64,000 nucleotides of DNA. It comes from Thermodesulfobacteriota bacterium. Its GTDB lineage: Bacteria > Desulfobacterota > Binatia > Bin18. How positions within the stretch are numbered: position 1 is the stretch's first letter; every line of letters starts with the position of its first letter. The DNA lies in assembly GCA_964291405.2 (NCBI GenBank), contig OZ219926.1:1333825-1397824 (forward strand). The letters run 5' to 3'. Shown one piece after another: positions 11,724 to 52,611 of the stretch. The notes below the pieces were generated by a model. It had not been told where the DNA came from and did not search any database. It saw nothing but the letters and a program-made list of their open reading frames with translations. Position numbers and translations under genes: made by a program.

Positions 11724-12248
11724 ATGAGTGACACGATCGACGATCTGGTGGCGCGTCTGACACGCCTGGAAGACCTCGAAGCCATTCGGCATACGTGGCG
11801 GGACTATTGCATGCGACTGGATTCTGCGGATTGGAGTGCGCTCGGTGATGTGTTCACCGAGGACGCCGTCCTCGAGATGGATGGACTGGACCATCTGATC
11901 GAGGGACTAGATGGTCAGTATTGCGGCCGACAGACGATCATCAACGACTTCTATCGGCAGACCGGGTCTGTGCTTCCGCACGGCGCCAAGCCACTGTTCG
12001 TCACCGGTCATCTCAGCACAAACATGCAGATCGAGCTCCAGGGCGACGAGGCCACCACGCTCGCGTACTTTTTCGAGATCGTCGCGAACGATCGGGTGTT
12101 GATCGGGACGTATCAACATCGACTCCGTCGCGAAGCGGATCGCTGGCGGTTTCGCTTCTTGCGCATCGCGATTCGGTATCGGGCTCGGCTGGAAGCCACG
12201 GACGTAGGCGGCCAATCGCTGAACGACATCCTCGCACGTCCGGTCTAG
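11724..12248 (+). CDS. SnoaL-like / NTF2-fold protein
   Basis: 174 aa. LEDLEAIRHTWRDYCMRLDSADWSALGDVFTEDAV is typical of the SnoaL_4-type family. Confidence 0.65.
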   Translation: MSDTIDDLVARLTRLEDLEAIRHTWRDYCMRLDSADWSALGDVFTEDAVLEMDGLDHLIEGLDGQYCGRQTIINDFYRQTGSVLPHGAKPLFVTGHLSTNMQIELQGDEATTLAYFFEIVANDRVLIGTYQHRLRREADRWRFRFLRIAIRYRARLEATDVGGQSLNDILARPV

Positions 12249-12332
12249 CTTATCGCTGGTCGTCCTCCTGAACTCTTGCGTCCGCTGGACAGGGTGTGAA
12301 AGAACCACGGAGAGAAAAACAAGGAGGAAGAG

Positions 12333-13406
12333 ATGGCAGACCCACAGTTTGACCAGGCAAGAGCCGACGCCTTTTCCCAAAAGATGCTCGGCATCTTAAA
12401 TGACGCGAGTGTGGCCCAGATGATAGTCATCGGCCACCAAGTCGGCCTGTTTGACACACTGGCCGGCTTAGCCCCCTCGACGAGTGAGCAGATTGCGGCG
12501 GCGAGTGACTTAAACGAACGCTACGTACGCGAGTGGCTCGGAGCCATGGTGACCGGCCGGATTGTAGACTATGACCCTGCCGGGAAAACCTACCGCCTCC
12601 CGCCTGAGCATGCCGCCGCCATCACTCGAGCGGCCGGCCCGAAGAACCTCGCGGCGCTGCTGCAAATGGTGCCAATGGTGGCGAGAGTCCAGCAGGGCAT
12701 CGTGGACAGTTTTCGCAATGGCGGCGGCGTGCCGTATTCAGCGTTCAGCGACTTCCATCAGCTGATGGCCGAGGTGAGTGGAGCCGTCCACGATGTGTCT
12801 CTCGTGAACACGACCCTGCCCCTCGTCTCCCAGCTGGTCGAGCGTTTACGCACGGGCATTGACGTCCTCGACGTCGGGTGTGGAAGTGGCCATGCGGTCA
12901 ATCTCATGGCGCAAGCGTTTCCGCAGAGCCGCTTTACAGGCTATGACTTCTCGGAAGAAGGCGTCGCTGCGGGACGGGCGGAGGCGCAGGAGTGGGGGCT
13001 CACCAATACCCAGCTGGCCGTCAAGGATGCGGCCGAGCTCGACGAGGTCAGCCGCTACGACTTTATCACCGCCTTTGATTCTATCCACGACCAGGCGCAT
13101 CCCCGCGCCGTGCTCAAGGGCATTGCCCAGGCCTTGCGGCCCGACGGCACGTTTTTGATGGTGGATGTGAACAGCTCGAGCAATTTGGAGGAGAACCTCG
13201 ACCATATCCTGGGGCCGATGCTGTATAGCATCTCATGTATGCATTGAATGTCGGTCTCATTGGCCCTCCGGGGTGAGGGTCTCGGCGCGATGTGGGGCAG
13301 ACACAAGGCTCAGGAGCTGTTGAGCGAAGCCGGCTTTACTCAGGTCACCATCAAGAATGTGGAACAGGATATGATGAATAACTACTACATCTGCACGAAG
13401 GGCTAG
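12333..13406 (+). CDS. class I SAM-dependent methyltransferase with an in-frame UGA (candidate selenoprotein, C-M-H-U motif)
   Basis: ORF 12333..13247 ends in TGA (13245-13247). The same frame stays open for 52 more codons to TAG at 13404-13406. It encodes [52 protein letters not shown]. As I recall, this is the normal C-terminus of this family, where the TGA position is Cys (SC.HCM..SLA). The SAM motif is [10 protein letters not shown] hairpin lies 14 nt downstream of the UGA. Confidence 0.7.
13262..13281 (+). promoter_or_regulatory. candidate bacterial SECIS stem-loop for UGA 13245-13247
   Basis: Stem GGCCCTC/GAGGGTC (7 bp including one G-T pair) with loop CGGGGT. Confidence 0.55.
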
Positions 13407-14676: not shown

Positions 14677-15318
14677 TTAGGCAGTCGCCCGCAGGCGGTC
14701 CGGCACTTCGAGCTCAGCGATCACTTCATCGCTCGTGAGCACCCGGCAGAAGGCCAGACGCAGAATTTCGAGGCTTGCCTCATGGGCCTGTTGCGAATAG
14801 GTGGCGTTGGCGTCGCTGACAAAAAACACCTTATAGTCCAGCATCGCAGCGTCCCGTGCGGTGGACTCACAACAGATATTGGTAGCAACCCCGGTGATAA
14901 TCAGACTTTCCCTTTTGAGACCTCGCAGGAGGCCCTCAAGGTTAGACGAGCCAGGAATGAGCGCGCTCCAGCGACACTTTTGGACCTGATGATCTTCAGG
15001 CTGGACGTCAAGCTCGGCGTAGAGCTCGACCCCCGTCGTCCCTTCGATCATGGGCGGCAGAAAATCCCACATCAGGCCGGCATCGCTGCCGTCTTTCCGT
15101 TCAACATGCCGGATCCAAATGACAGGGACTCCCGCCTGCCGGCACGTGTGAGCCAGCCGGTTGATGGTTGGGACGATCTCACGAGCGGCCGGGACCTCGC
15201 TGTGCGCTCCAGGTAGCAGGACGTCGTTCTCCATATCGATAACGAGAAGCGCGACGTTTGCCGGATCAATGTGCCAATCGGTTTTCCTGTGCGGATCAAA
15301 CGCTGTCGTGTGTGCCAT
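14677..15318 (-). CDS. isochorismatase-family cysteine hydrolase
   Basis: 213 aa. VALLVIDMENDV and ITGVATNICCESTARDA contain the catalytic Cys context. Confidence 0.8.
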   Translation of the reverse strand: MAHTTAFDPHRKTDWHIDPANVALLVIDMENDVLLPGAHSEVPAAREIVPTINRLAHTCRQAGVPVIWIRHVERKDGSDAGLMWDFLPPMIEGTTGVELYAELDVQPEDHQVQKCRWSALIPGSSNLEGLLRGLKRESLIITGVATNICCESTARDAAMLDYKVFFVSDANATYSQQAHEASLEILRLAFCRVLTSDEVIAELEVPDRLRATA

Positions 15319-15546
15319 GGGACATCCTCCTTTTCGTCAGCGAATTGTCAGATAATTCGTGCAGGGAGTATAGGCTCTTTGGCTTCTGCAAGTCAAAGAG
15401 ACATTGAAAAGCCAACCATACAGTCGAGCTAAGAAGATGACGAAGCCCTGCCCAAGGTCATGGGGACGAGGTTGCTCTGCCTATCCCCGAAGCCGCTCCG
15501 GTAATCAGGGCTACTTTATCTTCGAGTCGCATGGGTCCACTCTCCC

Positions 15547-17058
15547 CTATTTGGACAGCAAACTGGCCGCCACCCCATTCACTTGCACGGCGGGGGTTCC
15601 TGCGGCGAGCACAGCGGCGGCCTCTTTCTCGACCAGCGTGCCATTGAAAAAATCCGGGTTGGCGTCGGCCCAGAAATGGACCGGATTCGCCAGTACGAAG
15701 TCACGAAAATTGTCTGCATCCATCAAGCCATCTTCAACCAGTTCGTAGGCTTCGGGTAAGACCCCAGCCATGTCCGTCACGTCGAAATGGCCAATGTCCG
15801 AACCGAATAAGGCGTTCAACTGCGAGCCGAGCGGAAGATTCTTCCGATTAAAAGCCACGGCGTTCATTTTATCATCCGCCTCGCAGCCGAAATAAAAATT
15901 CTTGGCAAACAGCTCGTGAAAGTCCTGCTTCTTATCGATCTGGCACGCTGCGTAATCATCCAGATTCTCGATGCCACCCGTCTCGGGACCATACGGCTGC
16001 GTGACCGTGTCCAGGGGCGATTCACTCTCTGTTAACGCGTCGACGATTTCTTGACTTCCGTACGATTCAGCCAACTGCCGCAGCAAATCCACATCGAGAT
16101 TGTCTGGCCTGACTTCCTCCAAGGCGTCCACATTACGCTTCTCCCAGTGCTCGATCAGATCAACGTACAGCTGACACGCCCAGCCGACGCCGCCTTCCAG
16201 AAAACCAAACTTCAGGGTCGGAAACCGACGAGTCACACCGCCCAAAAAGAGCGCTTTACACACCGCTTCACCGGCAGCGGCAAAATGGCCAATGTGGTTG
16301 TAGCAAAAGTTCGAGGGCGAGACGCGCAAGCCGTAGCCTTTGCTACCGGAATGGAAGGTCGGCGAGAAGCCTAACTCGACACACTTCGCCCACACGGGGT
16401 CATAATCATGTTCGCTGTCGAGTCCGAGGACATCGTACCAGGCGGCAACGCCTGCGGCTGTGGGATGTTCTTCGGCAATAGCGGGTATCTGACGTCGCAT
16501 CATGCTGCCCAGCATGACGACCTTTAAGCCTAGTTGATGTTTCACATGTTCGAGTTCTGTAATGGCTTCTTCCGGCGTGTGCATCGGAATTACAGCCACC
16601 GGCGTCAGGCGATCCGAGAAGTTGCGAAAATAATCGGCACTAAATGTATTGAAGGCCCGGCAGGTCACCCGTCGCGTCTCGTCATCGGCAATCGTGGGGA
16701 GTGACAGACCTATAGTCGGATACATGACCGAAAAATCGAAACCGAGTTCATCCATGCGTTCATACAGCAACTGCGGCATAAACGCCGTAGCACGGTCGCG
16801 CGTATTCCTGGTTGGGAATCCCCAGAACCCCTGCTGCCCAATCCGTCGCTTACGCCGCTCAGCCACCGACATCGAGAGTTGCCGGTCGACCAGCGCGGGG
16901 CGTAATGAGAACCCCTCCGCGGCCATGTCCCCACCAATCTTTCGCAGCCGTTCCTCGACCAACGGCCCAAACTCCAGCCAGTGTCCGTCGGCGTCAATGA
17001 TCGGGTGGTTCAGCTGCTTCCGCAGTACTGTGTTCCTGGTAGTTCCGTTACGACTCAT
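15547..17058 (-). CDS. amidohydrolase-2 family metal-dependent hydrolase (ACMSD-like TIM barrel), long form
   Basis: 503 aa. It has the N-terminal metal-ligand motif IIDADGHWLE plus an HSG and a late D residue pattern. Confidence 0.75.
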   Translation of the reverse strand: MSRNGTTRNTVLRKQLNHPIIDADGHWLEFGPLVEERLRKIGGDMAAEGFSLRPALVDRQLSMSVAERRKRRIGQQGFWGFPTRNTRDRATAFMPQLLYERMDELGFDFSVMYPTIGLSLPTIADDETRRVTCRAFNTFSADYFRNFSDRLTPVAVIPMHTPEEAITELEHVKHQLGLKVVMLGSMMRRQIPAIAEEHPTAAGVAAWYDVLGLDSEHDYDPVWAKCVELGFSPTFHSGSKGYGLRVSPSNFCYNHIGHFAAAGEAVCKALFLGGVTRRFPTLKFGFLEGGVGWACQLYVDLIEHWEKRNVDALEEVRPDNLDVDLLRQLAESYGSQEIVDALTESESPLDTVTQPYGPETGGIENLDDYAACQIDKKQDFHELFAKNFYFGCEADDKMNAVAFNRKNLPLGSQLNALFGSDIGHFDVTDMAGVLPEAYELVEDGLMDADNFRDFVLANPVHFWADANPDFFNGTLVEKEAAAVLAAGTPAVQVNGVAASLLSK

Positions 17059-30002: not shown

Positions 30003-30093
30003 GCAATGAAGGCCGTGGGACCGGGTGATACGGGCTCTTGCAAAGACAAACCCGGTGTGACACCATCGGCTATCTTTAACTGGAGGGCATGTT

Positions 30094-31359
30094 ATGGGGC
30101 TTAATACCATCGAGAACAACGCTGTAGGGGTTAATTCGTCGGCCTATGTGCCTTCTCTCCAGCTCACCGCCGGGCAGCCGGCACCCATCGCGGCGAACGG
30201 CGGTTTGTCCTACATGTCGTTCGATCAGGACGGGGATGCGGGAACCGCGGCGGCGATGGAGGCGGCGATCCGCCAGGTTGCCGAGGGCGAAGGGCAAGCG
30301 GTCATCGACATGATCGAGAACGCCCCTCCCGGCCCGATCGAGACCAGGTGGGGTCTTGGGTTTCGGAGCTACGACGAGTGCCTGGACTATATTCGGGCGA
30401 ACAACATCCAGGCTCCCGAAGGCGGCGTCGCACTGCCGTTGCGCTACACGGTCTACGAGCAGCCGTCCTACTCGGTCGTCTCGTCCAACGCCATCTGGCG
30501 GGACCCGGCGCGCGCGGATGTGGCCAAAATGTTTCGCCAGGAAGAGCAGGAGATCGGGCGGAGAGGTCTCTATTTCCCGCAAATCCTGCGCGACGCGCGC
30601 CGGATGGCAGAGTACTACCCCGGTCTCTCGCCCACGAGCCCCGAGTGTATGGACAAGCTCGGCGTCTCGCTCGCCCACTGCGAATCGAAATGCCAGAATT
30701 TCTACGACGCCGCCGAGGTGGAGCGCGTCTTCTACCCGGAGATCGAGAAACTCCTGCTCGATTTCTTCCCCGGTGCAACGGATGCACTCGTGTATAACCA
30801 CGACGTGTTTGACAAGGACTACACGGGCCCCGTCAAGGAAGATCAGGACAACAAGGACCCGGGGGTCAACACCTTCTACGCCAACATCGTGCATAACGAC
30901 CTGAACGACAACAGCGGCCGCGTGCGGTGCCGCGAACTGCTGACGAAGAACCTGCGCAACTTTGGGCGCCGGCAGCACTACACCGAGGCGGAGGCCGACG
31001 CAAAGATGTCGCGGCGGTTCATGTCGATCAACCTGGCCAAGCCGATGGAGACCGTGGGCCAGAACCCCTTTGTCCTGTGTGCCTGGCCGTCGTTTGCTGA
31101 CCAGCCGTATATCACCAACTACCGCATCTACGACGACCGCGTGGGCGAGACCACCCGCTTCACCTACCGTCCCAACCATGAGTGGTACTGGCTTCCGCAG
31201 CAGACGTCGACCGAAGTGTCGATGCTCAAGTGTTACGACTCGGTGACCGACGGCTCGGTGTCGCGGTGGTCGTTCCACTCGGCCTGCATCGACCCGACCG
31301 CGCCCAAGGACGCCCCGTGCCGCAAGAACGTGGTCGTCCGCTCCTATATCTTCTTCTAG
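30094..31359 (+). CDS. CmcJ/NvfI (AsaB-like) family oxidoreductase with a roughly 170-aa N-terminal extension of unknown function
   Basis: The C-terminal 250 aa share family blocks with 33489..34427 (FYPEIEKLL, VHNDLNDNS, HEWYWLPQQTSTEVSMLKCYDS, final R..V..R....FF). The 475-aa ORF on the opposite strand is a shadow. Confidence 0.6.
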   Translation: MGLNTIENNAVGVNSSAYVPSLQLTAGQPAPIAANGGLSYMSFDQDGDAGTAAAMEAAIRQVAEGEGQAVIDMIENAPPGPIETRWGLGFRSYDECLDYIRANNIQAPEGGVALPLRYTVYEQPSYSVVSSNAIWRDPARADVAKMFRQEEQEIGRRGLYFPQILRDARRMAEYYPGLSPTSPECMDKLGVSLAHCESKCQNFYDAAEVERVFYPEIEKLLLDFFPGATDALVYNHDVFDKDYTGPVKEDQDNKDPGVNTFYANIVHNDLNDNSGRVRCRELLTKNLRNFGRRQHYTEAEADAKMSRRFMSINLAKPMETVGQNPFVLCAWPSFADQPYITNYRIYDDRVGETTRFTYRPNHEWYWLPQQTSTEVSMLKCYDSVTDGSVSRWSFHSACIDPTAPKDAPCRKNVVVRSYIFF

Positions 31360-31522
31360 GGAGACAACCCGACGTAGCGCTCTCCTCGCTGCGTCGGGGA
31401 GATCAGGGACGTAGCAATCTTTTACCCGGTGGGTGAGTGCCGGTTGCCAACGCGCCGCCCCCACTCGCCCGCGCTGACAGATTTTCCGGTTCGAGGTATT
31501 CACCGCATCTTAGAGGGACAAA

Positions 31523-36710: not shown

Positions 36711-37912
36711 CTACGCTTCGCTAACGACACGGCTCGCGGCTTCGACGGCCCCTTCGCCATGGGGGATGTTCAGCGCTTTCAGACCTGCGTCGATCACCGC
36801 GAGCATGCCCAAGGTCATGTGCGCATTCACGTGACCCATGTGGGCGACGCGGAAGAAACCATGGTAGGCAGGGTCGGAAGGTTCCGCCATGCCCAGTCCG
36901 ATGCCCAGGGTCACCCCGGACTTTTTTTCGGTCCAGCGTCTCAGCTCGGTGGCATGAGGGGCATCCATGGAAGCCGCAGTGACCGAGTGGGAACGGTCTT
37001 TTGGGTCGTTGATGTTAAGACGAATGGAACTGCCCATTCCCCAAGCATCGAACGCGGCCCAGACCGCTCGGCTGAGTTTCGCATGCCTGTCCCAAGCTGC
37101 CTCGAGTCCTTCCTCTTCCAGCAGCATAGTCAAAGCTTCACGCAGTCCAAAAAGATGGTGCGTCGGGGCGGTACCGAAAAAGTAGTGATAAAACACTTCC
37201 GGGTGGATTCGCGGACGGATATCCCAGTAAGGGGTAACCAGGTCCGCTTTCTTCCGAGCTTCGAGCACCCGTTGGTTGAAAAACATGAAACCCAGTCCCG
37301 GCGGAGTCATCAGGCCTTTCTGGCTGCCCGCCACCATCAGGTCTACGCCCCAGCTATCCATTTCAAAGGGTTCACAGGCCAAGCTGGCCATGGAGTCGAC
37401 CATGTACAAGGCCGGGTGCCCGGAGGAACGGATGCACTCGCCCAGGGCGGCGAGATCATTTCTCACCGAACTGGCCGTGTCCGTTTGCACGACCAGAATC
37501 GCTTTGTAGCGACGGTTCGAATCGGCTTTCAGCTTGGCTTCTACCTGATCCAGGTCCACCGGAGCCGATTTGCCGAAATCCACCAGGTCGACCTCCACCC
37601 CGAGCCGTTCAGCCATGCTGGCCCAGAATACGACGAAGCGTCCCGTAGCCAGGGCGAGCACCCTGTCCCCGCGCGAGAGGATGTTGGTCAGGGCGGCCTC
37701 CCAGGTGCCGTGCCCGTTGGCGATGTAGATGGCGACTTCCCCGGAACTCCTGGCCACCCGGTTCAAATCTGGAATCATGCCTTCCACCATTTCGTGGAGG
37801 GCGCGCCCTCATAGATATTCGGCGCGGCCTGGTGCATTGCCTGCAGGACGCGGTCCGGAATCACCGAAGGACCCGGAATAGCAAGATAGTGACGACCATG
37901 GCTTAATGACAT
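36711..37912 (-). CDS. class V pyridoxal-phosphate aminotransferase (serine/alanine-glyoxylate type) with an apparent 1-nt frameshift near 37795-37810
   Basis: ORF 36711..37790 lacks the family N-terminus. That N-terminus (MSLSHGRHYLAIPGPSVIPDRVLQAMHQAAPNIYEGA) is encoded from the ATG at 37912 in another frame. The span is 1202 nt, one short of a multiple of three. Confidence 0.75.
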
Positions 37913-37941
37913 CGAATTCCTTGCCTCTCTTTTTCTCTTTG

Positions 37942-38234
37942 TTACGCGGCTTCAAACTCTACTCTTTGGACATGTGAGAGATCTGTCGTTTTTCTGGTTT
38001 GCCACAAGCCATAGTTGTCCTGCATAGCCAGCCAGCTCTCCGGGGAACGACCCAAAGCCTTCGACAACCGCAATGCCATTTCCGGGCTGATAGCGCTCCG
38101 CCTATTAATGAGGCGAGTCAGCGTTGAAGGGACAACTCCTAAACTCGCCGCCAGTTACCGCATGCTTATGTCGAACGGTTCAAGGTAGGTGGACCGAATA
38201 AACTCTCCGGGATGTGGGGGTTATACATAGTCAT
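37942..38234 (-). pseudogene. decayed HigA-like antitoxin gene
   Basis: The HigA-like frame reads PHPGEFIRSTYLEPFDISMR-stop-LAASLGVVPSTLTRLINRRSAISPEMALRLSKALGRSPESWLAMQ. It is out of frame with its ATG (a C5 run at 38216-38220 on the plus strand as G5). It also contains an in-frame TAA at 38155-38157. Confidence 0.6.
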
Positions 38235-40416: not shown

Positions 40417-41454
40417 ATGAAAACATCCATCATGATCGGCGGAGCGACGTATACCGATATGCAGGGCATGGTTGAGTTTGTCCAACACGCTGAGCGTGTT
40501 GGCGTCGATCATGTCTGGTCGGCCGAGGGGTGGAGCCAGGATGCGGCAACATCCCTTGCCTATCTCGCTGGCCAGACTGAGCGCATCATCCTCGGCACCG
40601 GTATTATGCAGATCAGCGCCCGTGCGCCGTCTATGATGGCTATGACAGCCCTGTCCTTACACGATCTCTCCGGAGGACGCTTCATCCTGGGCTTGGGAAC
40701 AAGCGGCCCTCAAGTTGTAGAAGGGTTGCAGGGCGTCCCATTTCACGCGCCGCTTACCCGACTGAAAGAGACAGTCGATATTATCCGCATGGCTTTTCGA
40801 GGTGAGAAGCTACGCTATGAAGGCAAGCTCCATACCCTGCCGCGACCGGGTGGTGAGGGCAAGGCGCTCCGGCTTGACCATAAGCCCGTGGACATCCCCA
40901 TCTTTCTGGCAACCCTGGCACCCAAGGCGCTTGAATATACAGGCGCAGCGTCAGATGGTTGGCTAGGTACCTCATTTTCGCCTGAGTGTCCCGAAGCCCA
41001 TCTGGCTTATATTCGCAAAGGGGCAGAAGCAGCAGGACGAAAACTCAGCGACATTTCCCTGCATGCTGGGTGCGTGGTTGCGCTTGGCGACAATGTCGAG
41101 GAGCTCATCAACATGCGCAAGCCGTCTGTCGCCTTTAGTATGGGCGCTATGGGCTCGGCCACAACGAATTTTTACAACGCGGCCTTCCAACGCGCAGGGT
41201 TCGAAGACGATGCCAAAGCCATTCAACAACTATGGAGTAAGGGAAAACGCAAAGAAGCCGCAGAGCGCGTTCCGGACGCTATGGTGACGCAGTTCGGGGC
41301 TGTCGGGACCCCAGACATGATTCGTAAACGCTTTCAAAAATACAAAGACGTGGGAATTGACGGACTCACACTACGCATTGAAGCCGCAGATCATGCGAAA
41401 CGCATGGCAGATCTCGAACAAGTTATGGATGTGGTTGGCTCGATTGAAAAGTGA
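40417..41454 (+). CDS. LLM-class oxidoreductase (resembles the F420-dependent subgroup)
   Basis: 345 aa, with VDHVWSAEGWSQDA, GRFILGLGTSGPQVVEG and GTPDMIRKRFQKYKDVGIDGLTLR. Confidence 0.8.
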   Translation: MKTSIMIGGATYTDMQGMVEFVQHAERVGVDHVWSAEGWSQDAATSLAYLAGQTERIILGTGIMQISARAPSMMAMTALSLHDLSGGRFILGLGTSGPQVVEGLQGVPFHAPLTRLKETVDIIRMAFRGEKLRYEGKLHTLPRPGGEGKALRLDHKPVDIPIFLATLAPKALEYTGAASDGWLGTSFSPECPEAHLAYIRKGAEAAGRKLSDISLHAGCVVALGDNVEELINMRKPSVAFSMGAMGSATTNFYNAAFQRAGFEDDAKAIQQLWSKGKRKEAAERVPDAMVTQFGAVGTPDMIRKRFQKYKDVGIDGLTLRIEAADHAKRMADLEQVMDVVGSIEK

Positions 41455-41536
41455 ACTGATAACGCCTTTTCCTGAGATGGGACCTTTTATTATCGCGGAA
41501 GACACGCAATTACCATATCTGTTCAAAGGAGCAAAG

Positions 41537-42697
41537 ATGCACGACAACGACCAAGCCATGCGCGAGTTTGCCAAGACCTTAGCGCTGCCAGAATTTGAAG
41601 AAGCCGCTTTCACGAAACCACCACCGCTGCGAGAGGCGCACGTGGCGATCGTGACCAGCGCTGCGCTCCACCGAATCGGCAGCCCCAAGTGGAAGGTTGA
41701 GGATTTCCACTTTGAGACCTTGCCGAATGACGCCCGCGATCTGAAGCTCGGCCACCTGAGCCCGAACTTTGATCGGGCTGGCTTTGCCGCTGACATGAAC
41801 GTCGTCTATCCGGTCGACCGCCTGCAGGAACTCTCCGATCAGGGGGTGATCGGCAGCGTCGCTAATTACCACTACGCCTTCGCCGGCAACCAACCCGAAG
41901 GGCTATCCGCGCTGCGTTTGGATACTGGTCCGGCCTGCGCTCACAAGATGCGTGAGGATGGAGTGGATGTTGTCCTGCTCACTCCGGTTTGACCGCTGTG
42001 TCCGCGTACCGTGTGTACGCTGGCCCACGTCTTCGAGGCGGCTGGTCTGTCAACGGTCGTGATCTCACCGATGCGTGATGTTGCAGAACGCATGCGTCCA
42101 CCACGCGTACTGTATGCAGAATTTCCATTAGGGCTGCCTCTCGGCAAGCCCCGCGACGCGGCCTATCAGCACCGGGTGCTCGAAGCGGCCTTTGCCCTGC
42201 TGGAACGGCCGAGTGGACCGGTTCTCGTAGACTTCCCGGAGACGATCCAAAGCAGGGGTGGGGAGCCCTTAGAGTGTCCGCTTCCGCCTCGTTACGATCC
42301 GAACCTGCACCCAGCCATTGACGAAGCACAAGCGTTACGCGCTGCTTACGACCGCGCTGTAGCGAAAACTGGGCGGACCAGTGTCGGCCGGGTGATCAAT
42401 GCGGATCAGATTCCTGCCGCACTCGAGAAGTTCGTACGTATCGCCGAAGGGGAAGCCTGGGATCAGGTTGGGCTCGAAGGGACGACTATGCAGGTCGTGC
42501 ACGATATCCGGGCCTACTACGAAGAGTTGGCCTGCGAACTGGTAGTCGACGAGCCCATTCCGGCGTGGAGCGCTGAGCGTTGGTTCTACGATAAAACCGA
42601 GGCCGGTAAGGTGTTGCTGACGGCACGCCGTACGCTGAAGGAGAGTGGGGCGAACCGTCCGATCTGGTTTTTCATGGCCCCGGGCTCACGCCAGTAA
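41537..42697 (+). CDS. GrdB/PrdB-family (glycine/sarcosine/betaine/D-proline reductase selenoprotein B-like) protein with an in-frame UGA
   Basis: ORFs 41357..41992 and 42011..42697 are in the same frame, 654 nt apart. The only stop between them is TGA at 41990-41992. The joined sequence reads VDVVLLTPV-U-PLCPRTVCTLAHVFEAAGLSTVVIS...YAEFPLGLPLGKPRD. The N-terminal blocks VAIVTSAALH and DMNVVYPVDRLQEL fit the GRDB family. AAGGAG precedes the ATG at 41537. Confidence 0.75.
42000..42024 (+). promoter_or_regulatory. candidate bacterial SECIS stem-loop for UGA 41990-41992
   Basis: A perfect stem GCGTAC/GTACGC (42004-42009 / 42015-42020) closes the loop CGTGT. It is extendable to 42000-42024 with one mismatch. 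Confidence 0.55.
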
Positions 42698-42751: not shown

Positions 42752-43594
42752 ATGAAGCTGAGTATTAACGTGCGGAATTGGGGTCCTCATTCGACCGCTG
42801 ACATCATGCTCGAATGTGCCCATGCGGCCGATGAGTCCGGACTTGATACGCTCTGGATTAACGAGCATATTGCGATCCCACCGAATCTCGAAATGCCAGG
42901 CGGCTTCCCTGATTTCTCAGAAGGACGGGTTCTCGATCCGTTTGCGACTCTCGCATTCCTCGCCTCGGCGACAAAACGGATCGGCTTAGGTACGGCCGTC
43001 ATCCTCCTCCCCTACCGCCCCCCGCTTCCAACGGCAAAACTCGTCGCAACGGTCCATGAACTGTCGGGCGAACGTTTGCGTTTGGGTGTGGGCGTGGGCT
43101 GGATGAAAGAGGAATTTCAGGCCCTCGGGGTCGACTACAGTCGGCGCGGGGCAATGACGAACGAAACCTTAGCCTTTATCCGCCAGTGTTTTGATGGGGA
43201 CGATATAACTGAAGCGAATGGGCAACCCTTTTTATTTCGGCCCCGTCCCGCCTGCCCCCCAATTTATGTTGGGGGTGCACCACCGCATAGCCTTGAACGC
43301 ACGGTAAAATACGGTCACGGCTGGATTCCAGCCGGTGTCGAGGCGGAAGTCCTCAAGCCCGATATTGAAAAGCTGCAACAGCTGGCAAAGGAAGCCGGCC
43401 GCTCGGCGCTTGAAGTGGTTGCCATGAAAACCTTGCCCATCGATGACCCACCAAAGGCGATCGACTACGCGAAAGGCTTTGCGGAGGTAGGCGTGACCCA
43501 TCTTGTCCATACCCAAGGGTACGAGAGTGCGGCTGAATATCGACAGAATATCGCTGTTCTCGAAGAAAGAATTCGACCAGCTTTAGCCGACTAA
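42752..43594 (+). CDS. LLM-class oxidoreductase (F420-dependent-like, short form)
   Basis: 280 aa, with LDTLWINEH, RLRLGVGVGWMKEEFQALGV, PPIYVGGAPPHSLERTVKYGHGWIP. Confidence 0.8.
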   Translation: MKLSINVRNWGPHSTADIMLECAHAADESGLDTLWINEHIAIPPNLEMPGGFPDFSEGRVLDPFATLAFLASATKRIGLGTAVILLPYRPPLPTAKLVATVHELSGERLRLGVGVGWMKEEFQALGVDYSRRGAMTNETLAFIRQCFDGDDITEANGQPFLFRPRPACPPIYVGGAPPHSLERTVKYGHGWIPAGVEAEVLKPDIEKLQQLAKEAGRSALEVVAMKTLPIDDPPKAIDYAKGFAEVGVTHLVHTQGYESAAEYRQNIAVLEERIRPALAD

Positions 43595-44533: not shown

Positions 44534-46195
44534 ATGACGAACACGACTCAACAGCCACACGGAAACGGATCGCTTGAATACTGTGACGCCGTCATCATCG
44601 GAGCGGGCGTTGGCGGCATGTACGCCTTACACCACCTGCGCGAAATGGGCCTGTCAGTGCGCGTGTACGACGGCGCCGGCGGTATCGGCGGAACCTGGTG
44701 GTGGAACCGCTACCCCGGTGCACGGGTCGATGGTCCGGGCAGTCCTTTCTACTGCTACACCTTCTCGGAAGAGCTGGTGCGGGAGTGGGACTGGGCCGAG
44801 ACCCAGCCAAGCCAAGAGCAGGTACTGGACTACCTTGAGCACGTGGCCGACCGGCTCGACCTGCGCCGCGACATCCAACTTGAGACCTGGATACGCGACG
44901 CCCGTTATGACGAAGCGGTCCAGCGCTGGACAGTTGAGACCAGCGGTGGCGAGCGTGTCTCGGCTCAGTTTTTGATCTGCGCAGTCGGCACCCTCTCGGC
45001 GGCCCACAAACCCGACTTCCCTGGACTCGACGATTTTACCGGTGAGTGCTACCACACCGGCCGCTGGCCGCAGGAACCTGTTTCTTTTGAGGGCAAACGC
45101 GTTGGCGTGATCGGGACTGGCTCCTCGGGGGTACAGGCGGTTCCTGTAATCGCTCGCGAGGCCGCACACCTGACGGTGTTCCAGCGCACACCGCAATACA
45201 GCATCCCGGCACGTAACCGTCCCCTCGAGCCTGAGTTAATGCAGTACGCCCGCGAAAACTGGGACGAAGTCCGGGCGAAAATGAACGCCCATCCCGTAGG
45301 CATGCCGTTCGAGACCACCTCGCGCTTGGGTATCGAGGACACCCCCGAACAACGCCAAGCGCTCTACGAGGATCTGTGGCAGAAGGGCAGCTTCAACCTC
45401 CTTTTCGGCAGCTATGCCGACCTCCTGACCAATAAGGAGACCAACCGCACGCTGGCCGATTTTATACGCGGTAAGATTCGCGAGTGCGTGAAGGACCCCG
45501 AGATTGCCGAGAAGCTGATGCCAGACTACTATCTGGGCACCAAGCGCCAGATCCTCGATAATGGCTACTACGAAACCTTCAATCGCGATAACGTCACTTT
45601 AGTAGACTTACGCGAAGACCCAATTCAGACGGTCACTGCAACAGGTGTACGGACTGAGACCGGCGACCATCCGCTCGATATGATCGTGATGGCAACGGGC
45701 TTCGACGCCATCAGCGGCACTCTGCTGCGCCTCAACCCCAAGGGGCGTGGCGGCGTCGGCCTCAAGGAGAAGTGGAGCAGTCGCTTCGATAACTACCTTG
45801 GTATGGCGATTGCCGACTTCCCCAATCTGTTTATGATCCATGGCCCAGGCTCACCCTCAGTGCTCTATAACATGCCGCTCGGTGCCGAGCGCGAGACGGA
45901 GTGGATCGGCAACTGCGTGCAATATCTACGCGAACGTGGTCTGGGTGCCATCGAGGCGACGCCGGACGCTGAGAAAGACTGGGACAAAGAGGTCAACGAA
46001 CTCGCCAACGAGACGCTCTACCCCCTCACTGACTCCTGGTACACAGGCGCCAATATCCCAGGCAAGCCCCGTCAGTTCTGCGTCCACCTGGGTGGTCCGC
46101 TGTACTTTCAGCGCATCTCTGAGGCTGCCGCCAAGGGCTACGAGGGGTTCGTGTTTGAGGAGGAGAACAACGTAGACGTCTCCGCCGCGTCCTGA
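44534..46195 (+). CDS. type I Baeyer-Villiger monooxygenase, divergent third paralog
   Basis: 553 aa, with GAGVGG, the fingerprint FTGECYHTGRWP and GTGSSG. Confidence 0.9.
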   Translation: MTNTTQQPHGNGSLEYCDAVIIGAGVGGMYALHHLREMGLSVRVYDGAGGIGGTWWWNRYPGARVDGPGSPFYCYTFSEELVREWDWAETQPSQEQVLDYLEHVADRLDLRRDIQLETWIRDARYDEAVQRWTVETSGGERVSAQFLICAVGTLSAAHKPDFPGLDDFTGECYHTGRWPQEPVSFEGKRVGVIGTGSSGVQAVPVIAREAAHLTVFQRTPQYSIPARNRPLEPELMQYARENWDEVRAKMNAHPVGMPFETTSRLGIEDTPEQRQALYEDLWQKGSFNLLFGSYADLLTNKETNRTLADFIRGKIRECVKDPEIAEKLMPDYYLGTKRQILDNGYYETFNRDNVTLVDLREDPIQTVTATGVRTETGDHPLDMIVMATGFDAISGTLLRLNPKGRGGVGLKEKWSSRFDNYLGMAIADFPNLFMIHGPGSPSVLYNMPLGAERETEWIGNCVQYLRERGLGAIEATPDAEKDWDKEVNELANETLYPLTDSWYTGANIPGKPRQFCVHLGGPLYFQRISEAAAKGYEGFVFEEENNVDVSAAS

Positions 46196-51439: not shown

Positions 51440-51579
51440 GTAGCCCTTCGACTTCAGGCGCGTTGCGCCTGCCGCTCAGGACTAACGGTCTGCCGTTCGT
51501 GCTGAGCGTAGCGGAGCGAAGTCGAAGCAGGGATGCCGGAGCGCGTCCGACATGACGAGCACGTAACGGCAGGGCTACA
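51440..51579. repeat. nested palindromic (REP/MITE-like) element
   Basis: The outer arms are TGTAGCCC / GGGCTACA (51440-51447 / 51572-51579). Next come CTTCGACTTC / GAAGTCGAAG, then GCTCAG / CTGAGC, with a central hairpin AACGG-TCTG-CCGTT. Confidence 0.55.
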
Positions 51580-51703
51580 GCCTATAGTAAAACGCTCTAA
51601 GCGAGTAGGGTTACAACTGCCCTGCTCATACCCGCGACATAGGCCGCCCTGCTTTCGGCACTCAGTACCAAGCCGGTCGATACACAGCTCAGAACAAACG
51701 CCA

Positions 51704-52255
51704 CATCCCGCGCAGCATGACCGGGAAGCCTCCCTCCCGATCGAGAACTACGAAGCGCTGAAACGGGAGGGGTTCTATGAGCTGACCATCCCCACGAACT
51801 TTGGAGGTGGGGGCGCGGGTTTGCTGGACTGGGTGCTGGCCGTCGAGGAGCTGGCCCAAGGGTGTCCGAGTACGGCCCTCAGCTTCACCATGCATGCCGC
51901 CGGGGTGCGGATTCTCATCGACACGCCCACGACTCCGCCGGCCGCCAAACAGCGCATCGCCCAGCTGGTTGCCAAGGAACACAAGCTGTTTGCCTCCGCT
52001 TTTACGGAACCAGGCTCTTCTAGTCTCCTGATCGGCCTGCCCTTTGTCCCGAGCGTCCAAGCCCGGCGAGTCGACGGTGGGTACATGTTGCAAGGCCGCA
52101 AGGCGTTTACCTCGATGGGGGAAGCCAGTGATTATCTGATGCTCATGGTCCATCCGCAGAAATCATCCAATCCCCTGGAGATGCTGATGCTCCTGGGGCC
52201 GTATCCTGCGCCCGGCCTGCGGGTGGAGCATTTAATGCAGCCATTGACGCTTTGA
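51704..52255 (+). pseudogene. acyl-CoA dehydrogenase fragment (N-terminal and middle domains only)
   Basis: The translation HDREASLPIENYEALKREGFYELTIPTNFGGGGAG...GYMLQGRKAFTS stops before the C-terminal helical domain. The first roughly 40 family residues are also missing. Confidence 0.55.
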
Positions 52256-52611
52256 TACATGCCCCAGAGAAAGTATCGGATTGCTTCGCTGAAGATGTCC
52301 TCTGGATTAACTATGTGCCGCAGCATCTGCCTTATGGTGGTGAGTACAGGGGACTTGATGAACTGGCTAAGCTTTTCGCTCAATATATGGCAGCGCTCGA
52401 AATTGGAAAGCTTGAGTTCGATGAATATTTTGTCACTGCAGACAGTGTTTTAATTGTGACGGGGAACGAATGCGAGAGTCGGGTGAAATCAACCGGAAAG
52501 CATTACACTATGCCGTTTGTTTGGGTTGTCCGTTTTAATGAACATGGAAAAATCAACTATGTACGCGAATATAATGACACGTACCCGATGGCAGAAGCAT
52601 TCAAAGCCTAA
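52252..52611 (+). CDS. SnoaL/NTF2-like protein, possibly 5'-truncated
   Basis: 119 aa from a TTG start. The same frame continues upstream as AFNAAIDAL without a start codon and abuts the ACAD fragment. Confidence 0.55.
   Translation: MIHAPEKVSDCFAEDVLWINYVPQHLPYGGEYRGLDELAKLFAQYMAALEIGKLEFDEYFVTADSVLIVTGNECESRVKSTGKHYTMPFVWVVRFNEHGKINYVREYNDTYPMAEAFKA

What the first reader, a model, noticed from the sequence alone, without database searches (positions are those of the whole stretch)
41537..42697. Orphan GrdB/PrdB-like selenoprotein candidate between two LLM oxidoreductase genes: possible undescribed reductive module
Directly seen:
- ORFs 41357..41992 and 42011..42697 share one frame, and the only stop between them is TGA at 41990-41992.
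- The six codons after the TGA read PLCPRT, and the joined product reads DVVLLTPV-U-PLCPRTVCTLAHVFEAAGLSTVVIS.
- A perfect 6-bp hairpin (GCGTAC-CGTGT-GTACGC, 42004-42020) begins 11 nt after the TGA.

Established knowledge: GrdB and PrdB are selenoproteins of the Stickland-type glycine, sarcosine, betaine and D-proline reductases. They work with GrdA and GrdC/D/E or with PrdA.

None of those partners is in this window. The gene instead lies co-oriented, with gaps of 82 and 54 nt, between two luciferase-like (F420-type-looking) oxidoreductase genes (40417..41454 and 42752..43594).

Inference: this could be a three-gene operon in which a selenoprotein-B-like reductase is coupled to flavin or deazaflavin enzymes rather than to the classical glycine reductase complex.
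Basis: partly seen in the sequence, partly recalled or inferred. Interest (0 to 1): 0.85.

Follow-up and report, generated by a model that had tools for sequence, protein, structure and literature searches.

The report
Orphan PrdB-like selenoprotein gene, known family
The in-frame TGA is a genuine selenocysteine codon in a stand-alone relative of the proline/glycine reductase selenoprotein B, but it belongs to a widespread family already catalogued in ocean metagenomes, and its pairing with luciferase-like oxidoreductases is peculiar to one bacterial lineage (Binatia).

Summary
ATG 41537 to TAA 42697 is one 386-codon frame, broken only by TGA 41990-41992.

The TGA is almost certainly selenocysteine:
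- The same TGA sits at the same position in 74 of 80 species-representative genomes from five phyla; the other six have TGT (Cys).
- It aligns with the Sec of canonical PrdB.
- The 17-nt hairpin 11 nt downstream is kept in 398 of 402 stem cells, with compensatory changes and frozen third-codon positions. It is broken in all six Cys-type genes.

The protein is a PrdB-like core plus a clade-specific C-terminal extension of about 140 residues (helical in the model). It scores below the PrdB and GrdB family cut-offs. No PrdA homologue was found in the window or in about 100 related loci, and Pfam gave no GrdA or GrdE/PrdA-type domain in the roughly 50 window ORFs scanned.

UxxC 'PrdB' selenoproteins of this Pfam family, probably this clade, have been listed since 2005 among the most abundant selenoproteins of the Sargasso Sea and GOS data. 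The substrate is untested.

The proposed LLM-selenoprotein-LLM module is not general. An adjacent LLM occurs in all ten Binatia loci, in three arrangements, and in none of about 68 loci from other lineages.

Verdict: a new member of a known kind, with function still unknown.

The parts
41537..42697 (+). Complete selenoprotein gene: 386 codons, with Sec at codon 152 and stop TAA at 42695-42697. It is an orphan PrdB-like member of the selenoprotein B (PF07355) superfamily.
   Evidence: The frame is open apart from one TGA. Pfam GRDB and NCBIfam PrdB hit it. tblastn matches residues 1-386 in one piece, across the TGA, in Binatia genomes at 96-98% identity.
41528..41531 (+). GGAG Shine-Dalgarno-like motif, 5 nt before ATG 41537.
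   Evidence: Read directly from the sequence; not tested further.
41621..42202 (+). PrdB-like catalytic core (residues 29-222).
   Evidence: NCBIfam TIGR04483 aligns residues 29-222 to model positions 25-218 of 238, E 1.1e-33. The alignment with canonical PrdB keeps H73, D79, N88, P92, D144, C155, E167, G170, P189-R190 and Q211 invariant.
41990..41992 (+). UGA selenocysteine codon (U152), first residue of the U-P-L-C motif.
   Evidence: The codon is TGA in 74 of 80 species-representative genomes and TGT in 6. It aligns with the TGA of canonical prdB genes and with Cys in full-length homologues.
41999..42001 (+). Cys155 codon, the presumed resolving Cys of the UxxC motif.
   Evidence: It is invariant in all alignments, including the one with canonical PrdB. 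The resolving role is inferred.
42004..42020 (+). SECIS upper stem-loop: 6-bp stem plus 5-nt loop CGUGU, 17 nt in all, beginning 11 nt after the UGA.
   Evidence: 398 of 402 stem cells pair across 67 distinct Sec-type sequences. Pair 21-31 is UA in 51 and CG in 16; pair 22-30 is AU, GU or GC. Third-codon positions inside the hairpin have 0-0.8 bits of entropy, against 0.9-1.8 bits outside, and the stem is broken in 6 of 6 Cys-type genes.
42269..42694 (+). Clade-specific C-terminal extension (about residues 245-386). It is absent from canonical PrdB and lies just after the invariant Cys247.
   Evidence: Canonical PrdB ends at about residue 245 of this protein. The region has no Pfam or NCBIfam hit. 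It is helical in the AlphaFold2 model of homologue P0001 (pLDDT 90), and no PDB fold matches.
40417..41454 (+). Upstream 345-aa luciferase-like (LLM) oxidoreductase gene: a lineage-specific neighbour and possible operon partner.
   Evidence: PF00296, E 1e-72. Its orthologue (94-97% identity) is adjacent in 8 of the 10 Binatia loci, upstream in some and downstream in others; the other two (L017, L018) carry a different 295-aa LLM upstream.
42752..43594 (+). Downstream 280-aa LLM oxidoreductase gene (F420-type model TIGR03619 passed): a neighbour in only some Binatia genomes.
   Evidence: Searches give the family assignment. Its orthologue lies about 8 kb away in L013 and L016.

Best explanation
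41537-42697 is a single functional gene for a 386-aa selenoprotein.

During translation, the UGA at 41990-41992 is read as selenocysteine. This is directed by a 17-nt stem-loop (42004-42020) that starts 11 nt downstream. The genome is probably a Candidatus Binatia bacterium.

The protein belongs to a large, phylogenetically broad clade of the selenoprotein B superfamily. It has the short PrdB-type catalytic core with a U-x-x-C motif, plus a C-terminal extension of about 140 residues (helical in the model) that canonical PrdB lacks. In the loci examined, members of this clade occur as stand-alone genes inside varied catabolic gene clusters. They lack the pyruvoyl subunit (PrdA or GrdE) and lack GrdA/C/D.

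Inferred mechanism, not shown here: the Sec152 selenolate attacks an electrophilic centre of a still unknown small-molecule substrate. Cys155 then resolves the adduct as a selenenyl-sulfide, which a general cellular thiol system re-reduces.

The two flanking LLM genes are a Binatia-specific context. They may share a pathway or substrate with the selenoprotein, but they are not obligatory partners of the family.
For: TGA conservation and Cys homologues:
- TGA sits at the same codon in 74 of 80 GTDB species representatives, spanning Binatia, Pseudomonadales and other Gammaproteobacteria, Myxococcota, Acidimicrobiia and Chloroflexota. The other 6 have TGT.
- Full-length homologues carry Cys there.
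- Canonical prdB genes have their TGA in the aligned column.
- The codons between the TGA and the next possible start vary synonymously while P-L-C-P-R-T is kept, so they are translated.

SECIS:
- 398 of 402 stem cells are paired across 67 distinct Sec-type sequences.
- There are compensatory UA to CG and AU to GU to GC changes.
- Third-codon positions are frozen inside the hairpin only.
- All six Cys-type genes have a mismatch in the stem.

Standard genetic code: the upstream LLM gene itself ends in TGA.

Orphan status:
- tblastn with PrdA finds nothing at E <= 1 in the window or in about 100 loci.
- Pfam finds no GRDA or Gly_reductase domain in about 50 window ORFs or in the annotated neighbourhoods.

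Family size and splitting: 3561 cluster representatives match at E <= 1e-3. Many are fragments that end at, or start just after, the Sec position.

LLM link is lineage-specific.
Against: - Selenium incorporation has not been observed.
- The Sec machinery (selA, selB, selC, selD) could not be looked for in this genome. None is in the 64-kb window, and no tRNA-Sec is in the window or in the flanks of related loci.
- No other convincing TGA-interrupted gene is in the window.
- The hairpin alone is not more stable than shuffled sequence (z = -0.11), and much of its sequence is also constrained by the conserved peptide.
- The catalytic mechanism and the stand-alone mode of action are inferred from homology and from missing partners. 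A partner encoded elsewhere in the genome cannot be excluded.
- Within Binatia the LLM adjacency is perfect (10 of 10 loci), so a real functional link in that lineage is possible.
Confidence: 0.85

Rival explanations
1. The first reader's module: LLM345, the selenoprotein and LLM280 form one operon. In it, a selenoprotein-B-like reductase is functionally coupled to flavin or deazaflavin enzymes in place of the classical glycine or proline reductase partners.
For: - The three genes are co-oriented, with gaps of 82 and 54 nt and no terminator-like site between them.
- Only 3 LLM genes occur in the 64-kb window, and two of them flank this gene.
- All 10 Binatia loci have an adjacent co-oriented LLM.
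- The same LLM345 orthologue (94-97% identity) stays adjacent even where it has moved from upstream to downstream (L005 and L006).
Against: - None of about 68 non-Binatia loci has an adjacent LLM.
- The 83%-identical homologue in L001 has none adjacent.
- The LLM280 orthologue is about 8 kb away in L013 and L016, and L017/L018 carry a different LLM.
- The Binatia genomes are very close to one another (90-98% protein identity), so the shared arrangement reflects few independent events.
- In other lineages the neighbours are PhyH dioxygenases, sulfatases, acyl-CoA ligase with CoA-transferase, a PEP-utilising kinase, or amidohydrolases.
Confidence: 0.15
2. It is the PrdB subunit of a genuine D-proline reductase (as JGI annotation names several homologues), or a GrdB-type glycine, sarcosine or betaine reductase subunit, with the partner genes located elsewhere in the genome.
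For: - The best NCBIfam hit is PrdB, TIGR04483, E 1e-33.
- Sec and the UxxC Cys align with canonical PrdB, and a set of core residues is invariant.
- Sources label some homologues 'D-proline reductase (dithiol) PrdB'.
Against: - It scores 116.6 bits against the equivalog cut-off of 300, and 49.9 bits against 65.45 for the general selenoprotein-B subfamily model.
- Identity to canonical PrdB is only 28-30%, and there is an extra extension of about 140 residues.
- Canonical prdB sits next to prdA. No PrdA homologue is found in the window or in about 100 related loci of +-6-10 kb.
- The host lineages are mostly known as aerobic heterotrophs rather than Stickland fermenters (my knowledge, from the taxon labels).
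Confidence: 0.05
3. The TGA is a true stop, an assembly error or a pseudogene lesion. On this reading the locus holds two separate ORFs (151 aa and 228 aa) or a dead gene.
For: - Gene callers in public data routinely split it into two ORFs.
- The Sec machinery was not seen in the window.
Against: - The identical TGA position recurs in 74 independent species-level assemblies across five phyla.
- The peptide between the TGA and the GTG is conserved, with synonymous variation.
- Cys is found there in the homologues, and there is a covarying SECIS.
- The GTG at 42011 is simply the conserved Val codon of the P-R-T-V motif, and it lies inside the hairpin.
Confidence: 0.02

Closest known systems
Marine 'proline reductase PrdB' selenoprotein family of the Sargasso Sea and GOS selenoproteome surveys (Zhang, Fomenko & Gladyshev 2005, PMC1088965; Zhang & Gladyshev 2008, PMC2398784)
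   Same: It has the same Pfam domain (pfam07355) and the same UxxC Sec motif. It occurs with both Sec and Cys forms in marine and aquatic bacteria. The surveys counted 42 Sec sequences in the Sargasso Sea and 235 Sec plus 110 Cys sequences in GOS. The present clade is dominated by marine Gammaproteobacteria, Acidimicrobiia and Chloroflexota.
   Different: Those surveys filed the sequences under proline reductase. In the passages I searched they do not mention PrdA (no occurrence in PMC2398784), a C-terminal extension or gene context. I could not align their sequences with this one, so identity of the clades is very likely but not shown. Binatia members and the LLM context are not mentioned there.
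PrdB, selenoprotein subunit of D-proline reductase (TIGR04483; e.g. Peptoclostridium acidaminophilum, Terrisporobacter)
   Same: It shares the homologous alpha/beta core (28-30% identity). Sec is in the aligned column, followed by x-x-C, and H73, D79, N88, D144, E167, P189-R190 and Q211 are invariant. It is a short form that lacks the N-terminal half of GrdB.
   Different: It scores below the equivalog cut-off (116.6 against 300). It has about 140 extra C-terminal residues. There is no prdA next to it or anywhere in the fetched DNA. The hosts are mostly lineages known as aerobic heterotrophs (my knowledge).
GrdB / GrdF / GrdH, substrate-specific selenoprotein B of the glycine, sarcosine and betaine reductases (PF07355, TIGR01917/01918)
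   Same: It hits Pfam GRDB above the gathering score, and it has the UxxC motif.
   Different: It matches only the C-terminal part of the GrdB model (positions 200-345 of 347). It scores 49.9 bits against the 65.45 cut-off of TIGR01918. No grdA, grdE, grdC or grdD is present. The motif is UxxCxxxxC/S rather than the UxxCxxC reported for GrdB (PMC13188914).
Bacterial SECIS of the E. coli fdhF type
   Same: It is a stem-loop in the coding sequence just 3' of the UGA. Here it is a 17-nt upper stem-loop starting 11 nt after the UGA, with a conserved G/U-containing apical loop. From memory, this matches the minimal E. coli SECIS geometry (17 nt, 11-nt spacing).
   Different: The sequence differs from fdhF, and no bulged U is evident. 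No Rfam family matched. Binding by SelB is untested.

Membership tests
Bacterial selenoprotein gene | In-frame UGA aligned with Cys (or Sec) in homologues | tested here: met
   The codon is TGA in 74 of 80 species representatives and TGT in 6. Full-length homologues have Cys there, and canonical PrdB has Sec there.
Bacterial selenoprotein gene | SECIS stem-loop immediately downstream of the UGA, conserved beyond what the coding constraint requires | tested here: met
   398 of 402 stem cells are paired, two pairs show changes on both sides, and third-codon entropy is 0-0.8 bits inside against 0.9-1.8 bits outside. The stem is broken in 6 of 6 Cys-type genes. Thermodynamic z-score alone is not significant.
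Bacterial selenoprotein gene | The genome encodes selA, selB, selC (tRNA-Sec) and selD | not testable with these tools
   None is in the 64-kb window or in the flanks of related loci.
Bacterial selenoprotein gene | Selenium incorporated into the protein | not testable with these tools
   Needs 75Se labelling or mass spectrometry.
D-proline reductase PrdB (TIGR04483 equivalog) | Scores at or above the curated equivalog cut-off (300 bits) | tested here: not met
   116.6 bits.
D-proline reductase PrdB (TIGR04483 equivalog) | Encoded with prdA (pyruvoyl proprotein), usually directly upstream | tested here: not met
   Canonical Terrisporobacter has prdA, a small ORF, then prdB. tblastn with that PrdA found no hit at E <= 1 in the window or in about 100 loci.
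D-proline reductase PrdB (TIGR04483 equivalog) | Sec/Cys in a UxxC motif at the homologous position | tested here: met
   Alignment A5.
D-proline reductase PrdB (TIGR04483 equivalog) | Protein of about 240 aa with no further domain | tested here: not met
   386 aa. About 140 residues extend beyond the end of canonical PrdB.
Glycine/sarcosine/betaine reductase selenoprotein B (GrdB/F/H; TIGR01918 subfamily) | Scores at or above the subfamily cut-off (65.45 bits) over the full-length model of about 430 aa | tested here: not met
   49.9 bits, and only model positions 271-406 are matched. The Pfam GRDB domain passes (39.2 against 22) but covers only positions 200-345 of 347.
Glycine/sarcosine/betaine reductase selenoprotein B (GrdB/F/H; TIGR01918 subfamily) | Clustered with grdA, grdE and grdC/grdD (and usually trxA/trxB) | tested here: not met
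   No such Pfam domains appear in the window ORFs or in the Pfam-annotated neighbourhoods of homologues.
Selenoprotein B superfamily (Pfam PF07355), orphan PrdB-like clade | PF07355 hit above the gathering score, the UxxC motif, the shared C-terminal extension with invariant Cys247, and a stand-alone gene | tested here: met
   Homologues share 45-98% identity over residues 1-386.
   An adjacent LLM is present in 10 of 10 Binatia loci and in 0 of about 68 other loci.
   The genes are co-oriented with gaps of 82 and 54 nt. The consensus scans found no intergenic terminator or promoter, but they do not exceed the shuffled expectation either.

The most novel reading that the evidence does not exclude
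The orphan PrdB-like clade is not a proline or glycine reductase subunit. It is a self-contained selenol/thiol reductase whose clade-specific C-terminal region (near the invariant Cys247) replaces the substrate-activating pyruvoyl subunit. It would catalyse a so far undescribed reductive cleavage on a substrate in aerobic marine and soil heterotrophs. In Binatia it would have been recruited into a pathway with F420- or flavin-dependent LLM enzymes. That would give a function to one of the most abundant marine selenoprotein families.
Probability: 0.3. Interest if true: 0.6.

Novelty: new member of a known kind. Interest (0 to 1): 0.33.

Why it matters
Three things follow.

1. Annotation. The 386-aa Sec protein is being split into two ORFs in public gene calls. 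The same split affects many metagenomic entries: numerous cluster representatives are fragments that end at, or begin just after, the Sec codon.

2. An old puzzle made concrete. PrdB-like selenoproteins are among the most abundant selenoproteins in ocean metagenomes. Yet the genomes that carry this clade show no PrdA/GrdE, GrdA or GrdC/D near the gene, and the protein carries an extra region that canonical PrdB lacks. The name 'proline reductase' is therefore probably wrong for this clade, and its chemistry is unknown.

3. A lead, no more. The Binatia-specific adjacency to an LLM oxidoreductase is a modest pointer to a substrate or pathway, not a defined module.

Tried and rejected
- **Rfam scan of the window at gathering thresholds:** no hit, so no known SECIS or other RNA family.
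- **ARAGORN on the window and on 53 related loci:** no tRNA-Sec.
- **Thermodynamic test of the hairpin region:** z = -0.11, uninformative. I replaced it with comparative analysis.
- **PDB sequence search with the family profile:** only a sub-threshold glutaredoxin CPxC-motif resemblance (E about 0.6).
- **Foldseek of a confident AlphaFold2 model against the PDB:** nothing significant (best E 8.5e-3, TM about 0.3). No solved relative is available to guide function.
- **Structure prediction of the window protein itself:** I used the 60%-identical Cys homologue P0001 instead.
- **Neighbour clustering:** two recurrent 'families' (c2, c18) turned out to be antisense or low-complexity ORF artefacts of high-GC loci and were discarded.
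- **Scan of the window and Binatia loci for other TGA-interrupted genes with redox motifs:** nothing convincing in Binatia. Only L001 shows Prx-like W-U-P-Y-C genes.
- **Promoter and terminator consensus scans around the three genes:** no more sites than in shuffled sequence.
- **Literature searches for Binatia plus selenoproteins, or for selenoprotein B in SAR92, SAR202 or Acidimicrobiia:** nothing relevant.
- **LLM enrichment outside Binatia:** LLM genes lie within +-10 kb in about 12 of 68 loci, never adjacent. I judged this background for these LLM-rich phyla.
Full report
**1. The observation**

The sequence is as described.
- ATG 41537 is preceded by GGAG at 41528-41531.
- It opens a frame that runs to TAA 42697 with a single internal stop, TGA 41990-41992.
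- The next six codons read P-L-C-P-R-T.
- GCGTAC-CGTGT-GTACGC occupies 42004-42020 and starts 11 nt after the TGA.
- The flanking co-oriented genes (40417..41454 and 42752..43594) lie 82 and 54 nt away.
- Both are luciferase-like monooxygenase-family proteins (PF00296).
- The downstream one passes the F420-type model TIGR03619. The upstream one falls just short of TIGR03559.

**2. Is the TGA selenocysteine?**

Family and homologues:
- With U replaced by C, the joined product hits Pfam GRDB (39.2 bits, cut-off 22).
- Its best NCBIfam hit is PrdB (E 1e-33).
- A search of 5.8 billion proteins gave 1115 hits of two kinds.
  - Full-length homologues of about 395 aa, at 45-61% identity.
  - Closer hits (66-96% identity) that are only 226-228 aa and begin just after the TGA position.
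- The full-length homologues mostly have Cys in the U column, in the motif TPV-C-P-x-C-x-R-T.
- The contigs of the short hits show the same split. An N-terminal GRDB fragment ends 18 nt before the C-terminal ORF, with TGA and the same hairpin.

Conservation of the codon:
- A scan of one genome per GTDB species found 340 species that encode a relative.
- In the best 80, the codon is TGA in 74 and TGT in 6.
- These span Candidatus Binatia (96-98% identical, so the window is very probably Binatia), Pseudomonadales (including Porticoccaceae, SAR92 and Azotimanducaceae), Myxococcota, Acidimicrobiia and Chloroflexota/Dehalococcoidia.
- Canonical prdB genes from Peptoclostridium acidaminophilum and Terrisporobacter were retrieved from the plasmid collection. 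Their own TGA lies in the aligned column, followed by x-x-C.
- The genome uses TGA as an ordinary stop elsewhere; the upstream LLM gene ends in TGA.

**3. The SECIS**

- Folded alone, the region is no more stable than shuffled sequence (z = -0.11).
- Across 67 distinct Sec-type sequences, the 6-bp stem is paired in 398 of 402 cells.
- Pair 21-31 is U-A in 51 sequences and C-G in 16, with no mixed combination.
- Pair 22-30 runs A-U, G-U, G-C. Pair 20-32 is G-C or G-U.
- Third-codon positions inside the hairpin are almost frozen, at 0-0.8 bits. For example, the Thr/Val codon always ends in G, and the Pro codon is CCG in 63 of 67.
- Third-codon positions outside the hairpin vary freely, at 0.9-1.8 bits.
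- All six Cys-type genes carry a C-A mismatch in the middle of the stem.
- The loop keeps an invariant U and a nearly invariant G.
- A 17-nt stem-loop that starts 11 nt after the UGA matches the minimal E. coli SECIS geometry as I recall it. That is my knowledge, not tested here.
- The synonymous variation in the P-L-C codons between the TGA and the GTG also shows that this stretch is translated, which requires read-through.

**4. What the protein is**

- The PrdB-like core spans residues 29-222. It is 28-30% identical to canonical PrdB.
- H73, D79, N88, P92, D144, C155, E167, G170, P189-R190 and Q211 are invariant in that alignment.
- Canonical PrdB ends near residue 245. The remaining residues, about 140, are specific to this clade, follow the invariant Cys247, and have no Pfam or NCBIfam match.
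- An AlphaFold2 model of the 60%-identical Cys homologue P0001 is confident (pLDDT 90, pTM 0.90).
  - It places the Sec/Cys in the loop between a beta-strand and the helix that carries the rest of the motif.
  - It makes the C-terminal part helical.
- Neither sequence nor fold search finds a solved relative.
- The protein scores below the PrdB equivalog cut-off (116.6 against 300) and below the general selenoprotein-B subfamily cut-off (49.9 against 65.45).
- It is therefore a distinct clade of the superfamily, not PrdB or GrdB proper.
- An exhaustive profile search finds 3561 50%-identity clusters at E <= 1e-3 and 301 at E <= 1e-30. Many are fragments that end at profile position 150 or begin at 158-161. 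These are split Sec genes.

**5. Partners and context**

- Canonical prdB sits behind prdA.
- A tblastn search with that PrdA finds nothing at E <= 1 in the window or in about 100 fetched loci.
- Pfam scans of about 50 window ORFs show no GRDA, Gly_reductase or Sel-machinery domains.
- The region instead encodes three Baeyer-Villiger-type monooxygenases, several GSTs, two epoxide hydrolases, two GFA proteins, TauD, a rhodanese, amidohydrolases and three LLMs.
- Across lineages the immediate neighbours differ:
  - PhyH dioxygenases, a TonB receptor and Amidohydro_3;
  - a PEP-utilising kinase, acyl-CoA ligase, CoA-transferase, SDR and sulfatases;
  - dienelactone hydrolase;
  - Amidohydro_2 and a second tandem copy of the gene itself.
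- No family is a universal neighbour.

**6. The LLM module**

- Within Binatia the link is striking. All ten loci have a co-oriented adjacent LLM, in three arrangements.
- The same LLM345 orthologue (94-97% identity) is upstream in four loci and downstream in four. L005 and L006 also have it downstream.
- The window holds only three LLM genes in 64 kb.
- However, these genomes are close relatives.
- The LLM280 orthologue is about 8 kb away in two of them. L017 and L018 use a different LLM. The 83%-identical L001 homologue has none adjacent.
- None of about 68 loci from other lineages has an adjacent LLM.
- The adjacency is thus a lineage-specific context. It is possibly a real local pathway, but it is not what defines the gene.
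- Co-transcription is plausible from the short gaps, but it is untested.

**7. Comparison with what is known**

- Zhang, Fomenko and Gladyshev (2005) listed 'proline reductase PrdB' (UxxC) as the third most abundant selenoprotein family of the Sargasso Sea, with 42 Sec sequences and 1 Cys homologue (PMC1088965).
- The GOS analysis counted 235 Sec and 110 Cys sequences under pfam07355 with the UxxC motif (PMC2398784).
- A 2006 survey listed 'proline reductase' selenoproteins in Anaeromyxobacter and Geobacter, which are not Stickland fermenters (PMC1794560).
- Recent reviews still list only GrdB and D-proline reductase for this domain.
- NCBI names the Cys forms 'glycine/sarcosine/betaine reductase selenoprotein B family protein'.
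- The selenoprotein family is therefore known.
- In the papers I could read, three things are not addressed: the missing pyruvoyl partner, the C-terminal extension, and the real substrate.

**8. Verdict**

- 'Undescribed' and 'LLM-coupled module' are not supported as general claims.
- This is a new (Binatia) member of a known, abundant but functionally uncharacterised selenoprotein clade.
- Confidence that it is a real selenoprotein gene is about 0.9.
- The proposed chemistry is inference from homology: selenolate attack, then a Se-S bond with Cys155, then re-reduction by a thiol system.
- Interest is modest (0.33). It rests on the open question of what orphan PrdB-like selenoproteins do in these mostly aerobic heterotrophs.

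Noticed in passing
L001:1258-1950, 12152-12670, 15193-16623: Three AhpC/TSA (Prx-like) genes are interrupted by an in-frame TGA in a W-U-P-Y-C motif. One follows a guanylate-cyclase domain in the same frame. This suggests the organism behind this 1.1-Mb contig, which also carries an 83%-identical copy of the PrdB-like gene, has several selenoproteins.
   Followed up: partly
L101:1517-2770 and 5461-6744 (also L102; second weaker copies in L026 and L061): Two Sec-split copies of the PrdB-like gene lie about 3.9 kb apart on one contig, at 63-65% identity to the window protein. A 95-aa Bac_luciferase fragment lies between them.
   Followed up: partly
L097:5869-6777 (Roseomonas haemaphysalidis plasmid p546-2): A shorter (302 aa) Cys-type 'selenoprotein B family protein' with a C-P-V-C motif lies convergent with, and 4 nt from, a gene annotated protein adenylyltransferase SelO. 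It belongs to another orphan subfamily of the same superfamily.
   Followed up: no
window 51533-52608: An acyl-CoA dehydrogenase appears truncated. Its N and middle domains are in a 240-aa ORF ending at TGA 52253-52255, with a further ORF in another frame starting at 52252. This could be a frameshift, a pseudogene or a sequencing error. The second ORF was not annotated.
   Followed up: no
window 36711-37955 (- strand): The class-V aminotransferase is 359 aa here but 399 aa in the Binatia orthologue of L019. Upstream of the conserved 'ALHEMVEG' the window reads a different sequence, with an in-frame TGA at 37811. This is probably an N-terminal frameshift rather than Sec.
   Followed up: no
window 3193-6542 and 44534-46195; whole window: The window is unusually dense in xenobiotic-type oxidoreductases and transferases: three Baeyer-Villiger/FMO-like monooxygenases (two in tandem), at least four GST genes, two epoxide hydrolases, two GFA genes, TauD, nitroreductase, a three-domain rhodanese and three LLMs.
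   Followed up: partly
L018 (CAYWPF010000047.1): This MAG is labelled 'uncultured Enterobacteriaceae', yet it carries a 90%-identical copy of the gene with the L017-type Binatia arrangement (a 295-aa LLM upstream). The label or the binning is probably wrong.
   Followed up: no
window 30076-31503 (-) / 30094-31359 (+): Two long ORFs (475 and 421 aa) overlap on opposite strands, and neither has a Pfam hit. Which strand is coding, if either, is unresolved.
   Followed up: no
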